Source of the DNA: Trypanosoma brucei
Lineage: Eukaryota
Direction: 5' to 3'
NCBI GenBank assembly: GCA_000002445.1
Contig: CP000066.1
Span: 32,001 to 96,000, forward strand
Length of the DNA stretch: 64,000 nt
Shown here: positions 43,701 to 49,700 of the stretch, in pieces
Position numbering within the stretch: the first letter of the stretch is position 1
Layout of the letters: each line of letters opens with the position of its first letter
Position numbers: made by a program

Positions 43701-46700
43701 AAAGTTAAAACCTAAACTTACGATGATGTTTGGGACAATTCACGAGCTTGCTAAGAACAAAAAGCAAACAACTCTAAAACCGAAGATGAGAGTCGTTTTT
43801 ACACATAAATAGGTAATATCTACAGCGGGAATTAGTAGTTGAGCTTGTGTATAGGGACATAATGCGAACATACTGTTGAATAGAAATAGCAATGGGTTCA
43901 CCCAAAGCATCAGAGAACCTGTATGCGCTATTTTCAAGCGGAAGGTATCGTCCAATTTAAATTTAGCACCAAATAGAAGCATCGGGCGATTAAGACGGGC
44001 AGACTCATAGCTATTACAAGTCTGTCAATGTTATAACCCACTTTGAGTTCTCTTTTGTGTGACATAATACTATAAGGGAGTAAAGGTTCAATTCAAACTC
44101 AATAAAGCTGTGTAAGCAAACATCAACAGTAGGTTCACAGACTCTGAAGAAAGCACCACCATAAACATAGATGGAAACAATCCACGCCATATCTGATCTC
44201 TTCTTCGCACAAATAACCTCTCTCAGTTTTCAATACCACCGATGCTCCCATACCAAAAAATAATATAGAAATACATTTGCTAACGCTAATACAATATGAA
44301 AAGCAATCTTTCTTACCTTTCCAGATCAAAATGAGCCAGCTAAGGGAAGAGAAAAGTGAAAAAATGCGGTATTCAGCACTGCACAGTTGCCTCTGGGTCA
44401 TGTTTCTCTTACTTTTTCATGCACTAAATGTGGACGGCAATTCAAAAGGCGCAATCCAAGGCGCAAAGTGGAAACCGCTATGCACGCTAACCGCGGATGC
44501 AAACAAAGTGTATAACCGTGCACTCAAGCTCCAAATATTAATTACGGACTACACCAAAGCGGCAACAAAGTTGGCTGTAGAAGCAGTCGCAGCGGCACAA
44601 AAGATGCAAAACGCAGAGGCACACGCAGCAGCAATAGGACTTGTGGCTGAGATAAGAGAGCAGCTGAAAAGCAAACAACCAGAAATCGCCAGGTGCTACA
44701 AAGTGGCCGTAGAAACACCGGCCTTCATAGGCTACACGCACGGACGGATTGCTGAATTCTTAGAAATAATGGGACACAACAGAGGAGCATCGAACTACGG
44801 GTACCTCGCACAACTAAGCTCACCGACGTCGCCAGCAACCGACGCAGCCACTGCACAACTATCGAGCTGCAAAATCAAGCCGCACGACATAACGGAAGGA
44901 CCCGAAGAGACAGAAGTGCTAACAAAGAAAGGCTTTGTCGGCATGGACCATGGCACGGGCCTCGTCGACGGTGTTCTAACAAGCAGCTGCAACGAACACT
45001 GCGTCCTTACGTCAGCCACTGCAACCGCCTTAAACTCAGACACAGGACCGCAGGAAGACATTCCGTTCACCAATGGATATATCCTTAAACACCAAACAAA
45101 CACTGCACGGTCAAGTCAACTCATAAATTCTCTGTCAAAGCAGGCCAAAGGGCTGCCAAACAAGGGACAAAATCAACAATATGTGAGGCTGTGGGACAAG
45201 TACGTCCAGCTCGAGGGATGCGAGACGAGCTTCAAGGCAGGGTTTTCCAAGCCCGAAGCACAAACGCTCAAACAGTCAGTAGCAGTATTAACAGCCCTGA
45301 AAAACATAATCGACAACGAAAGCGGCGAGTATGACCTGAGCAAAGACGGCGAACAAATCAAGACAGTGGCTGAGAAATTGTTCAAACACGGCGAGGACAA
45401 CTACCCAGAAAAGCTATACAAGGAAGCACAAGCAAAGACGTTGAGAAAAACACTGATGGCGGGCAACACAGCAACGAGCCTGACGAACCTGGAAACCCCA
45501 ATAGACTTGCAAATCGCACAAATGTACTATACACAACGCAAGATCGATGGTTTTATCGCAAAACTAAAGGAAGCTGAGGAACAGCTTTCCAAGGATAAAC
45601 TGGGTGATTATGGAGCAGCCGCAGCAGAACATGCCTGCAATAAACTAGATGGTGAACAAAAATGCAATACTGATAAAAAATGCAGTTACGAAACGGCAAG
45701 TGATGGGACAAACAAGTGTACATATAATGCAAGCAAAGCAAAAGCAAACAACGTCCCTGTAGCACCAACTCAAACAGAATCAGCTAAAAAAACAACAAAG
45801 AAATGCAAAGGGAAGAAAAAGGATGACTGCAAATCTCCGGATTGTAAGTGGGAGGGTGAAACTTGCAAGGATTTCAGTTTTCTCGTCAATACGAAATCGA
45901 CTCTGATGGCTGCAACTTTTCTGTCTTTTTTTAAAATTTTTCACCCTCTATTTCCTTGCTGAAATTTAATATATTTTAACAACTGAAAGTTTCCCGGAAA
46001 TAGTGTAGTTTTGTAAGTTTGTGATTCTGCAAAGTTTTTATGATAGCTAAAAAAATTTCTCTTTTTTTCACTTTTTTTAGAATTTTTTCAGGGTTATGAT
46101 TTTTTAGAATTTATAGGGTTAGGTTTTTTCAAGGGCTTTTTAATTTTCGACTTTGTTTAATTTTGTGTCTTTTGGAGCATTTTTTATTTTTACCTTCGTT
46201 TTTTAGGTTTTTTATTTTTGTCCAACTTTTTTAAATCTTTTTTTTAATTTTAGGAGAAACAAAACCGATCAACAAGCTGAAAAGAGACTAAACAGATTTG
46301 AAGTTAGGGTTAGGGTTATTGGATTGAGGTTTTTAATTTTTTTGATTGTTTTTTATTTCACTTCTTTTTATTTTTTATTTTTTCTAATTCTTCAATTTTT
46401 AAAATTTTATTGATGCAGCGGCTCTTTTTCTTGATGCGGGATCTGACCCTTATTTACCCAGCAAGCATCTTCATCCTTATATTTTTCACCTGCGCCATCT
46501 ACCTAATTTGTTACTTTTTTGCTTTTGTGCATTTTAGCTCGGCATATAGCGCTGCACGCGGCTTTTTTGTTAACAGTGGCGCGTGGAAGTTTCGCTTCGA
46601 GAAACGATTTGCCTTTCAAGGGGCACTAACTAAAAAATCTTAATATTTGGAAATGGCAAAATATGGAGTTTGGAAGCTAAAGCCAGTCGACGTAGCAGCC

Positions 46701-49700
46701 TGTACAGGTCGTTGCGCGGCACAGCAACATAGCCAAAGTAAGCGGATGAGGCGAGCAGTTAACTGCAGTGTCATCAGGCCAATGCGTGCACATCACCATG
46801 CCCCAACAGATCCGGCGGCGACAGTCAAAGATCTTAATGCATGGCCCCAAAATCACTACGTGCATAAATCTACCGCAAAAGCAAAGCAACAAGCCAACAG
46901 TAGAGGGACAGAAAAAATGCAAACCACAAAACGCAACAGCTGAAGAATACACAAGCAAGGACTGCGAATATTATGCCGCCAAAAACACAGGAATGTAAAC
47001 CTAAACAAGGAACAGAAACCCCAGCAACAGGAACAGGAGAGACAAGCACTGTGGTAGATTAAAATAAACACCGATCCCAGAAAGCATGTGAGGCAAAAAA
47101 CAAGGATGTCAAACAGAGTGAGAAAGCAGTCTGTAAATGGATTAATTTTGTTGATGGTACTGGAAAGCTTCCCAAGCCGGAATGCCGCTCTTTCAGTTTC
47201 CTCATCAATAAGAAATTTTCTCTGACAGCAGATGCTTTCGTGGCTTTGTTAGAATAATGAGAGTTTAAGCACTCTAAGAATTATTTCTCAATTTTATGAA
47301 ATATTACTATTTAGAAACAATTTACTATAATTAATAAATTTGCCACTATGTGACATATTTTAACACTATTTAGAAGAAAAAAGAAATTTAATGAAATTTA
47401 AGGGCTAGAAAATGTAAAATATTTTTATGAAAGTTTCATGCTGTTGTTAAGCAGTAGGATATTAGTGTATAAAAAATAGTGACATTTTAACATGCTTTGT
47501 TTTGTTTTCTAATTATGGACATCAAGTAGGTTTATAATAAAAACAATAGTTAAGAACATTATAACGATAATAATATAAGTGATATTGATAGGAGAGTGTT
47601 GTAAGTGTGTGTATACTAATATTATGATAAGAGCAGTAATAATAATAGTGATGATGATGATAATGATGGGAGAGTGTTGAGAGTGTGTATATATACTAAT
47701 ATTATAATAAAAGTATGGCTAAAACTAAATGGCCTGGAAAAATAAATACGCTTGAAGAAATTGCAATGATGTAATGGGAGTAAGGGAGTGAGTGAGTGAG
47801 TAATGTATGAGAGGAAGTGAAAGAGTACAAAGAAATTTAATAAACGAAACTCGTAAAAGAAAATGGAATCTTATGAAGTTTCAAAAACAAATATGAGTAT
47901 AGGAAGCATTTTAAAAAAGAAGATAATTAATGTTAAAGTGAGGTGGAGACAGTGTATAGTGCACATACCAGACACACTCGCTAAGTTATACGGAGTAGAA
48001 GACAACGAAAGAACAATACAGAGTGACGAAATGGGATGCGGAGAAAAATAACAAAGAAGGTAACGATAAATAAAAAGTCACCATACCAACCTATTTCGTG
48101 GAACAATGGGTATATGCTACAGTGGAAATAATAGTTGGTGTCGTTTTTAATCTGATGGCGGACCTAGAGGTTAGCAATGAAGCTCAACAGGATTCGAATT
48201 ACATGCTGCATGTCGGAGTTCTAGCTTCGATGTGGAAAGACCGGATGGCCAGGAACTGTTATAGGTGGGAAACACGATGGTTTGGTATTTTTTATTAGAT
48301 TTCAAAAATTAGTGACGAAACCGCCCCATAAAGGCAAACAATAGCGATGAAAAAAAAGCGCATGGTGGGGCAGCGAGCAGATATAGCAGATAGTTTTGCA
48401 AGAGGGGAGAGATGCGCGGCGGATAGGCAGTGGTACACAAACGGCGCCTACCACAAAGTGGGGATCTCCAAGAGAAACCGGCGGCTACAAGCGAAGACTA
48501 CCGATGCGGTTGTTACTAGACAAAGCGGCGAGAAATAAACAAATCTTTACTTCTCTCCTTAAAGCAAACCAAGGGAAAATTCAGGTAAAAATACCACAAC
48601 AACTGTACGACGCACTGGACAGGCAAACTAAAGCCAGGCACCGAAAACACAAAAAAGACCACGAGTGAGCCAGGGATGGCAAAAGCAACGTACGCCTTAG
48701 TCGTACAGACTTTGTTCTTAGTATCAAAAGTGAACCAAGTACAGCCAACGGCCGGGGACGCGATCAAAAAGAAGTACTGAAAAGCGCTATGCGACATAGC
48801 CGTATATGCGGACAACATAGCAGCGAAAGCGCTGTCCAGCATGCAAGAACCAGCAACCCCTTGCCGAAAAGCGCTACAAAATCTGCTAAGAGCTCTTGTC
48901 TATAATCTCGCAAACAGTACCGAACAAGCGACGCCAGGCGAAAAGATGATATGGAGTCATTTCGCGGAGCAGACGGGCACAACAATAGAGTTTTACAATG
49001 GCGACAATCCAGCGAAGCTAATAACAGCGGTGCGCGACGCAGCTCGAGCAGGCGGCGCAATACTGGATCGGATCGAAACGCAACACACGATTTCAACGAT
49101 CACACATGACTGCCTGTCGCCCAACGACGCTGGAGGACCGCCAGCAACCGGAAACACCAACCTGCAAAGCATGGAGGCAAAATGCGTCTCGGACTGGACG
49201 GCGGTTAAGCCGAAAAAAGAGGCAACAGTAGCCGTCAGCCACGTCGGCCTACAAGGCGAATTAAGCAGAAATAACGCGCACAGCGAACTCTCCAACGGTG
49301 ATCATAAATGCAACAGCAACAGCGCCGACATCGCCGTAAAATTACTTCACGGAGACACAGGAACAAGCTTAGCAGCCAACAACCCAAAACTAGTAGCGGA
49401 AATATTTAAACTAACCGACAACGGCATAACAACAGAGGGCCTCGCCAACGTCGCGGCAAAGCAGCAAACAAACCCGTATGTATATCACATAGTGCAGGCA
49501 GTAAAAGCTTCGGAGGAAACCATAACACTGGAGGCCGTGAGCACGCTATACAAGGCAAAACCCAGTAATTCACCCAAGAGTGTAGCACGTGTGCATTTTT
49601 TAGGGACGATACACACGGACACTACAAGGGACACGGAGGTTCCAGACAAAATACAAACTGCGTTCGGCAGTCCAGAGGAGTATACAGCAATCTACAGCAG

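What the first reader, a model, noticed from the sequence alone, without database searches (positions are those of the whole stretch)
45963..47260. Interstitial telomere relic downstream of a probably-intact VSG, followed by an orphan VSG 3' end
Immediately after VSG 44364..45962 and its 16-mer there is no 70-bp repeat. Instead there is ~450 bp of T-rich DNA (45990..46400) containing degenerate telomeric hexamers, including a clean TTAGGGTTAGGG at 46303..46318. This is followed by non-VSG filler (46400..46900). After that comes an orphan VSG C-terminal fragment with its own 3'UTR (46930..47366), and only then 70-bp repeats. In T. brucei, telomeric VSGs are followed by their 3'UTR and then telomere repeats. 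This arrangement therefore looks like a former chromosome end that was internalised and decayed. Telomere healing, fusion, or capture of a telomeric or minichromosomal VSG could produce it. The odd extended C-terminal tail of this VSG (…LMAATFLSFFKIFHPLFPC) sits right at the junction.
Basis: partly seen in the sequence, partly recalled or inferred. Interest (0 to 1): 0.7.

Follow-up and report, generated by a model that had tools for sequence, protein, structure and literature searches.

The report
Telomere-type flank fossil inside VSG array
A Trypanosoma brucei surface-antigen gene inside a silent gene array has an unusual downstream flank with short telomere-like motifs, but this is an old, duplicated recombination fossil and does not show that a chromosome end once lay here.

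Summary
The window is a T. brucei TREU927 VSG array. After VSG 44364..45962 the ordinary array flank and 70-bp repeats are missing. Instead there is about 420 bp of T-rich DNA. It holds three telomere-like patches on the VSG sense strand, including a perfect 16-nt run, GTTAGGGTTAGGGTTA, at 46303..46318. Next come 475 bp of unique non-coding filler, then a VSG C-terminal domain (CTD) with no N-terminal domain and its own 3' end.

- A T. equiperdum contig carries the same composite cassette at 82% identity. The arrangement is therefore old, real and was duplicated as one unit.
- The clean dimer is not conserved in that copy.
- The T-rich DNA has no 6-bp periodicity, so it is not a decayed hexamer array.
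- Similarly T-rich DNA lies on both sides of the dimer, so there is no junction between a repeat tract and foreign DNA.
- The odd C-terminal tail comes from small deletions, not from a junction, and EATRO1125 shares it.

Best reading: this is a spacer of the kind found between telomeric VSGs and the telomere tract, which is known to hold T2AG3-like tracts. It was carried into the array by an old recombination event. I could not test homology to real telomeric flanks. Interest is modest.

The parts
42783..42850 (+). 70-bp repeat at the 5' edge of the cassette. Homology with the T. equiperdum copy L001 starts here, at the end of that contig.
44364..45962 (+). A-type VSG with an open ORF of 532 aa. 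It is 98% identical to EATRO1125 VSG 1125.232.
45881..45962 (+). Aberrant GPI-signal region with a 9-aa read-through tail (..LMAATFLSFFKIFHPLFPC). It lacks 10 nt compared with the canonical paralogue.
45967..45982 (+). Degenerate 16-mer TAATATATTTTAACAA (2 mismatches), in a 3'UTR shortened by 4-nt and 16-nt deletions. Homology with ordinary array flanks ends here.
45983..46050 (+). Unique segment after the 16-mer. Its first 22 nt or so are nearly identical in L001.
46051..46240 (+). T-rich block 1. T-tracts are phased at 9-10 bp. It holds a 27-bp tandem unit (46073..46129) and a 28-bp unit (46180..46233).
46090..46101 (+). Telomere-like patch 1 (AGGGTTATGATT, 10/12). It lies in the 25-bp unit that L001 lacks.
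46114..46125 (+). Telomere-like patch 2 (TAGGGTTAGGTT, 11/12). It is identical in L001.
46241..46300 (+). A-rich island inside the T-rich tract, 72% identical to L001.
46303..46318 (+). Perfect telomeric run GTTAGGGTTAGGGTTA (2.7 units). L001 has only GTTAGG here.
46319..46400 (+). T-rich block 2, with a 25-bp periodic unit.
46401..46875 (+). Non-coding filler with ordinary base composition. It is 78% identical to L001 and matches no VSG, protein, Pfam or Rfam entry.
46876..47257 (+). Orphan VSG C-terminal domain with no N-terminal domain and an in-frame TAA at 47060. Homology with L001 ends at its last codons, about 47248.
47351..47366 (+). 16-mer of the orphan 3' end (TGACATATTTTAACAC, 1 mismatch), followed by an ordinary array flank.
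47567..47715 (+). Two 70-bp repeats that close the cassette.

Best explanation
This is an inert recombination fossil: a composite VSG cassette. A complete VSG with its 3'UTR is followed by a 913-bp spacer (45963..46875) instead of the array-type flank.

The spacer resembles what separates telomere-proximal VSGs from the hexamer tract. It is T-rich with phased T-tracts, carries a few T2AG3-like patches on the sense strand, and then runs into unique sequence. On this reading the TTAGGG patches are a native part of the spacer, like the T2AG3-like tract downstream of VSG221. They are not the worn-down remains of a long telomere.

The spacer is joined to the C-terminal domain of another VSG. That domain's 3' end, ordinary flank and 70-bp repeats now close the cassette.

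Inferred history:
1. A VSG of telomeric type was copied or recombined, together with its downstream spacer, into an array cassette. The event started in the 70-bp repeats and ended illegitimately at the hinge of the resident VSG, leaving that gene's CTD orphaned.
2. The composite was later duplicated as one unit, bounded by the 70-bp repeat and the orphan's 3' coding end.
3. The copies diverged. Small deletions then damaged the GPI signal and 3'UTR of the upstream VSG in the TREU927/EATRO1125 lineage.

Shown: the anatomy, the non-array nature of the flank, the non-random telomere-like motifs, the age of the composite and its duplication as a unit, and the deletion origin of the tail. Inferred: the telomeric origin of the spacer and the recombination route.
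For: - Homology to ordinary flanks stops at the 16-mer, both in the window and in L001. Nothing in the window matches 45982..46875.
- Fifteen ordinary flanks (13 in the window, 2 in L001/L002) reach a 70-bp core within 181-351 bp and have T of 0.30-0.41.
- The telomere-like patches are enriched over local and window-wide shuffles and are all on the VSG sense strand.
- Published expression-site data fit. The VSG-to-telomere distance is 200-1590 nt (PMC2567434). A 106-bp T2AG3-like tract lies just downstream of VSG221, separated from the true telomere by other sequence (PMC1807955). [quoted passage not shown]
- T. equiperdum OVI contig CZPT02000005.1 aligns to window 42783..47248 at 82% over 4.5 kb in the same order. 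Both junctions lie inside gap-free sequence.
- That homology ends at the orphan's last codons, the usual 3' limit of VSG conversion.
- The paralogue keeps a canonical VSG 3' end and a perfect 16-mer directly followed by the same spacer.
Against: - I could not compare the spacer with any real telomere-adjacent T. brucei sequence, so the telomeric origin rests on architecture and published descriptions only.
- Primers from the VSG2 spacer of BES1 do not match here.
- The T2AG3-like content is much smaller than the 106-bp tract described for VSG221: 16 nt perfect plus two patches of about 12 nt.
- The clean dimer is absent from the paralogue, so it could be a late slippage product of a single GTTAGG.
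- 'TTTTTTAG' motifs and T-tract phasing are also what ordinary trypanosome intergenic DNA looks like.
Confidence: 0.5

Rival explanations
1. True former chromosome end. The VSG was once the last gene before a long (TTAGGG)n tract. The end was internalised by fusion, healing or capture of array DNA, and the tract has decayed or been trimmed to 2.7 units.
For: The orientation and the distance from the VSG are right, and the perfect 16-nt run is non-random. T. brucei tolerates and heals broken ends at T2AG3-like seeds (PMC1807955).
Against: There is no 6-bp periodicity in the flanking T-rich DNA. Similarly T-rich DNA lies on both sides of the dimer, so there is no junction between repeats and foreign DNA. 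Only one hexamer is present at the homologous site of the paralogue. A further 555 bp of conserved non-VSG DNA follows before the orphan CTD.
Confidence: 0.15
2. No telomeric connection. About 900 bp of T-rich, curved intergenic-type DNA of unknown origin became lodged between a VSG 3' end and a CTD fragment. The telomere-like patches grew by replication slippage from GTTAGG-type seeds, which also occur singly in ordinary array flanks.
For: The tract evolves by gain and loss of 25-28-bp units and hexamers: the two copies differ by a 25-bp unit and by about 10 nt at the dimer. Single TTAGGG hexamers are part of the ordinary flank motif just 5' of the 70-bp repeats. The T-tract phasing and TTTTTTAG motifs are not specific to telomeres.
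Against: Three telomere-like clusters within 230 bp occurred in 0 of 5000 local shuffles. All are on the sense strand. The architecture parallels published expression-site spacers. The filler has no protein or RNA relative that would point to a source gene.
Confidence: 0.3
3. Assembly artefact: a chimeric join of a telomeric clone with array sequence in the reference assembly.
For: Repeat-rich subtelomeres are hard to assemble.
Against: An independent assembly of T. equiperdum OVI has the same order of parts at 82% identity, with both junctions inside gap-free sequence. EATRO1125 encodes the same VSG with the same tail.
Confidence: 0.02

Closest known systems
Spacer between a telomere-proximal VSG and the telomere tract in bloodstream expression sites. 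An example is the VSG221/VSG2 site with its T2AG3-like tract (AJ271641 nt 211-322, described in PMC1807955).
   Same: It starts after the VSG 3'UTR. It has no 70-bp repeats. It carries degenerate T2AG3-like motifs on the sense strand close to the VSG, followed by non-telomeric sequence. Its length falls within the reported 200-1590 nt.
   Different: Here it ends in a VSG CTD fragment rather than in (TTAGGG)n. The T2AG3-like content is far shorter. Sequence homology was not tested, and primers from the BES1 spacer do not match.
Short interstitial telomeric sequences (ITS) of vertebrates, inserted at double-strand-break repair sites (PMC7215372, PMC2246262, listed).
   Same: A few perfect hexamers at an internal site, differing between related loci.
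   Different: Those are clean insertions into otherwise collinear DNA. Here the hexamers sit in a telomere-like, T-rich context, and the related copy already has one hexamer at the site.
VSG C-terminal fragment pseudogenes of the silent archive. Gene fragments are a recognised class in the TREU927 VSG census of Marcello & Barry 2007, which I cite from memory because the paper is not held.
   Same: The orphan is a CTD with a GPI signal, a 3'UTR with a 16-mer, an ordinary flank and 70-bp repeats, and it has no N-terminal domain.
   Different: It is not a free-standing fragment. It serves as the 3' end of a larger composite cassette that was duplicated as a unit.
29-bp subtelomeric repeat of T. 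brucei (title of Eid & Sollner-Webb 1995, seen).
   Same: The T-rich tract shows weak 27-28-bp periodic units that contain telomere-derived motifs.
   Different: The periodicity is weak (z about 3) and absent from the paralogue. The resemblance is a lead only.

Membership tests
Internalised telomere / fusion-type interstitial telomeric sequence | Tandem array of canonical TTAGGG units | tested here: inconclusive
   Only 2.7 perfect units (46303..46318), plus two isolated patches at 10/12 and 11/12.
Internalised telomere / fusion-type interstitial telomeric sequence | Degenerate flanks that keep a 6-bp periodicity | tested here: not met
   Autocorrelation at lag 6 gives z = -2.0 to 1.2. The peaks are at 9-10 and 27-28 bp.
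Internalised telomere / fusion-type interstitial telomeric sequence | Abrupt junction between the repeat tract and unrelated DNA | tested here: not met
   T-rich DNA of similar composition lies on both sides of the dimer, with weak direct repeats between 46202..46245 and 46324..46367.
Internalised telomere / fusion-type interstitial telomeric sequence | G-strand oriented away from the proximal gene | tested here: met
   All patches read TTAGGG on the VSG sense strand.
Telomere-proximal VSG downstream spacer | Follows the 16-mer directly, with no array flank and no 70-bp repeat | tested here: met
   The flank profile matches only the 16-mer. The next 70-bp core is 1625 bp away.
Telomere-proximal VSG downstream spacer | Contains T2AG3-like sequences on the sense strand | tested here: met
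   The feature is described for expression sites in PMC1807955 and PMC11229358.
Telomere-proximal VSG downstream spacer | Length of 200-1590 nt | tested here: met
   913 bp to the next VSG-derived sequence and 341 nt to the dimer. The range comes from PMC2567434.
Telomere-proximal VSG downstream spacer | Sequence homology to spacers of real telomeric VSGs | not testable with these tools
   No T. brucei telomeric DNA was reachable. Four BES1 or silent-site spacer primers gave no match.
Telomere-proximal VSG downstream spacer | Ends in the (TTAGGG)n tract | tested here: not met
   It ends in the filler and an orphan CTD.
Ordinary array VSG cassette | 70-bp repeat upstream, VSG, 16-mer, conserved flank of about 200-350 bp, then the next 70-bp repeat | tested here: not met
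   The upstream 70-bp repeat is present (42783..42850). The flank after the first 16-mer is not the conserved one. The rule is met only after the orphan's 16-mer.
VSG C-terminal domain fragment (orphan) | Match to Trypan_glycop_C with no N-terminal domain upstream | tested here: met
   Pfam PF10659 at 46.3 bits against a cut-off of 21.4. There is no VSG similarity in 46401..46870. The L001 copy is an open reading frame of about 150 aa that holds the complete CTD.
29-bp subtelomeric repeat | Tandem 29-bp units of the published sequence | not testable with these tools
   Only weak periods of 25-28 bp were found.

The most novel reading that the evidence does not exclude
The locus marks a real former chromosome end. 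A telomere-proximal VSG with its seed tract became internal when the end captured array DNA, and the composite then spread by cassette duplication. That would be sequence-level evidence that silent arrays grow by internalising telomeric cassettes. It would also mean that arrays carry latent T2AG3 seeds at which broken chromosomes could be healed.
Probability: 0.15. Interest if true: 0.55.

Novelty: new member of a known kind. Interest (0 to 1): 0.3.

Why it matters
If the spacer is of telomeric type, the cassette records traffic from telomeres into the silent arrays. That is the reverse of the well-studied array-to-expression-site direction. It also shows that such composites can persist and be copied as units.

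The perfect 16-nt telomeric run is a potential seed for de novo telomere addition after a nearby break. T2AG3-like sequence downstream of VSG221 was shown to act in this way (PMC1807955).

In practice, this VSG has an open ORF but a damaged GPI signal and 3'UTR. It is best regarded as a donor of N-terminal-domain sequence rather than as a ready-to-use gene.

None of this changes the current picture of antigenic variation. It is a well-documented example, not a new principle.

Tried and rejected
- **Synteny in other strains by exact-protein look-up.** Five start variants or relatives of the VSG and one neighbouring ORF are not on record.
- **The third protein search.** It gave a single protein, P0019, and that one hit led to the informative T. 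equiperdum contig.
- **The tract as a derivative of the ordinary array flank.** Rejected. The profile of 14 flanks matches only the 16-mer.
- **The T-rich tract as a decayed hexamer array.** Rejected on periodicity.
- **The filler as a decayed VSG N-terminal domain or another gene.** blastx against VSGs, Pfam, a search of 5.8 billion proteins and Rfam all found nothing.
- **An internal tandem duplication of about 190 bp within the tract.** The similarity is weak and reached by 5 of 500 shuffles, so I do not claim it.
- **BES1 spacer primers from PMC11229358.** No match.
- **Literature.** No held paper describes interstitial telomere repeats in T. brucei VSG arrays. Marcello & Barry 2007, Wickstead 2004, Eid & Sollner-Webb 1995 and two PMC ids that I recalled for the chromosome I and II papers are not held.
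- **Another T-rich stretch at 31621..31880.** It is just an ordinary VSG 3'UTR and flank.

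
Full report
**Context.** The window is a head-to-tail VSG array, with every cassette on the + strand. There are 15 matches to the 3'UTR 16-mer and about 20 cores of 70-bp repeats. The VSG at 33865..35445 is exactly XP_843646.1 of T. 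brucei brucei TREU927, on a record of 1,653,225 bp. The window therefore comes from the reference genome.

**Observation.**
- VSG 44364..45962 is an open A-type VSG: Pfam Trypan_glycop 284 bits and Trypan_glycop_C 78 bits.
- Four bases after its stop codon lies TAATATATTTTAACAA (45967..45982), a 16-mer with two mismatches.
- In 13 other cassettes of the window the 16-mer is followed within 181-351 bp by a 70-bp core. Those flanks have T of 0.30-0.41 and share a conserved motif (..TGAGTG..ATTCTAATTTT..TTATGGATATTAGTTAGGG).
- Here the next 70-bp core is 1625 bp away. The flank has T of 0.50-0.58.
- BLAST finds no copy of 45982..46875 elsewhere in the window.
- A profile HMM of 14 ordinary flanks matches this flank only over the 16-mer itself.

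**Telomere-like motifs.** The only TTAGGG dimer in 64 kb is at 46304. The perfect run is GTTAGGGTTAGGGTTA, 46303..46318.
- Matches of at least 11/12 to any phase of the telomere repeat occur only in this tract, at 46114 and at 46302-08.
- Matches of at least 10/12 form three clusters within 230 bp here. Elsewhere there are five clusters on the + strand and three on the - strand.
- In local dinucleotide shuffles of 45983..46400, a perfect 12-mer arose 4 times in 5000 and three 10/12 clusters arose 0 times in 5000.
- In whole-window shuffles a perfect 12-mer arose 3 times in 400.
- All patches are on the VSG sense strand, which is the orientation of a telomere distal to a VSG.
- The single TTAGGG hexamers at 10047, 12862 and 50453 belong to the ordinary flank motif just 5' of the 70-bp repeats and are a different thing.

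The second, an ordinary shared flank, fails for ordinary flanks.

**Filler and orphan.**
- 46401..46875 has ordinary base composition. It has no blastx similarity to VSGs, no significant Pfam hit, no relative among 5.8 billion proteins and no Rfam match.
- From about 46876 the DNA matches the CTD of the VSG at 55879..57177 at 71%.
- The last 64 codons hit Pfam Trypan_glycop_C at 46 bits.
- There is an in-frame TAA at 47060 and the stop is at 47255-57.
- The orphan's own 16-mer (47351..47366, one mismatch), an ordinary flank and two 70-bp repeats follow.

**The decisive comparison.** One protein hit, P0019, led to T. equiperdum OVI contig CZPT02000005.1 (L001, 9788 bp).
- It aligns with window 42783..47248 at 82% over 4535 bp, in the same order: 70-bp repeat, upstream region, VSG, 16-mer, T-rich tract, filler, orphan CTD.
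- Identity falls from 5' to 3':

| Segment | Identity to L001 |
|---|---|
| Upstream region | 91% |
| VSG N-terminal domain | 85% |
| VSG CTD | 80% |
| T-rich block 1 | 82% |
| A-rich island | 72% |
| T-rich block 2 | 77% |
| Filler | 78% |
| Orphan CTD | 76.5% |
| Beyond the orphan's stop | below 60% |

- L001 is a scaffold with 10-N gaps. Its first gap-free piece (1..4021) spans the 16-mer/T-rich junction and most of the filler. The next piece (4032..4550) spans the filler/CTD junction. The arrangement is therefore not an assembly artefact.
- Divergence of 9-24% is, from general knowledge of these very close taxa, far too high for orthologues. The two are paralogues.
- Consistent with this, EATRO1125 encodes a 98% orthologue (VSG 1125.232) and also a separate relative at 83% (VSG 1125.5511).
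- The composite was therefore already assembled before an old duplication and was copied as one unit. The 3' limit of that unit is the end of the orphan's coding region, a typical 3' limit of VSG conversion.

**What the comparison says about the telomere idea.**
- Patch 2 (TAGGGTTAGGTTTTTTCAAGG) is identical in both copies.
- Patch 1 lies in a 25-bp unit that L001 lacks.
- At the clean dimer L001 reads GTTAGGTTTTAAGATTG, which is one hexamer. With two copies the ancestral state cannot be decided. The dimer may be a late slippage product.
- The T-rich DNA shows no 6-bp periodicity (z = -2.0 to 1.2). It shows 9-10-bp T-tract phasing in both copies (z = 3-4) and a weak 27-28-bp period in the window only. 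It is not a decayed hexamer array.
- The dimer has similarly T-rich DNA on both sides.
- These facts argue against a worn-down long telomere tract at this position.

**What published work says.**
- In expression sites the VSG lies 200-1590 nt from the telomeric repeats (PMC2567434).
- Just downstream of VSG221 there is a 106-bp T2AG3-like tract, separated from the true telomere by other sequence. It served as the seed for de novo telomere addition after breaks (PMC1807955; PMC3610638).

The anatomy here parallels that description: 16-mer, then T2AG3-like patches 128-356 nt past the stop, then unique sequence, 913 bp in all. The parallel is at the level of architecture only. I could not obtain any telomere-adjacent T. 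brucei DNA to test homology, and four primers from that paper's expression-site spacers do not match here.

**The C-terminal tail.**
- The tail ..LMAATFLSFFKIFHPLFPC is identical in EATRO1125 VSG 1125.232.
- The paralogue has a canonical end (..AFVALLF, TAA), a full 3'UTR and a perfect 16-mer. Compared with it, the window lacks 10 nt in the GPI-signal codons, which shifts the frame past the old stop. It also lacks 4 nt and 16 nt in the 3'UTR.
- The distance from the GPI-signal coding sequence to the 16-mer is much shorter than in other cassettes.
- The tail is therefore a private decay of this lineage and has nothing to do with the junction.
- The exact protein is absent from the public protein collection, while its neighbour is present. 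This suggests the reference annotation does not treat it as a normal gene (inference).

**Verdict.**
- Best reading (confidence 0.5): an old composite cassette whose first VSG carries a telomere-type downstream spacer with native T2AG3-like patches. It is joined to the CTD of another VSG and was propagated by cassette duplication.
- Rival 1 (0.3): the spacer has a non-telomeric origin and the hexamers grew by slippage.
- Rival 2 (0.15): a true former chromosome end.
- Rival 3 (0.02): an assembly artefact.

It is a new example of known kinds of subtelomeric fossil, of modest interest to those who study archive evolution.

Noticed in passing
window 10047, 12862, 50453 (and the equivalent places in other flanks): Ordinary array flanks share a conserved motif just 5' of the 70-bp repeats (..ATTCTAATTTT..TTATGGATATTAGTTAGGG). 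In three cassettes it contains a single exact TTAGGG. Any census of telomere-like hexamers in arrays must discount this motif.
   Followed up: partly
window 42783..47258 against L001 6..4465: Identity between the two paralogous cassettes falls steadily from 5' to 3' (91%, 85%, 80%, about 78%, 76%) and collapses right after the orphan's stop. This could reflect later partial conversions that started in the 70-bp repeats.
   Followed up: partly
window 46051..46400; L001 3307..3626: T-tracts are phased at 9-11 bp in both copies (autocorrelation z = 3-4). This is the signature of intrinsically curved DNA.
   Followed up: no
L001 4440..4490: The orphan CTD of the T. equiperdum copy is an open reading frame of about 150 aa that holds the complete CTD. 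It has also lost its canonical stop (..AAFVALLF then SGFYLHF*). This is a second, independent read-through tail in the same cassette family.
   Followed up: no
window 33865..35445: This VSG is exactly XP_843646.1 / AAZ10087.1 of T. brucei brucei TREU927, on a record of 1,653,225 bp. That identifies the source of the window.
   Followed up: yes
window 4581..4795 and 60647..60767: Long (TAA)n runs lie next to 70-bp repeat cores. They are the triplet-repeat part of the 70-bp repeats, expanded at two cassette borders.
   Followed up: no
window 12694..12930: The cassette border after the 16-mer at 12694 has only a degenerate 70-bp-like core (AAAGTGTGTTGTGAGTGTACAG), which my 3-mismatch scan did not pick up.
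   Followed up: no
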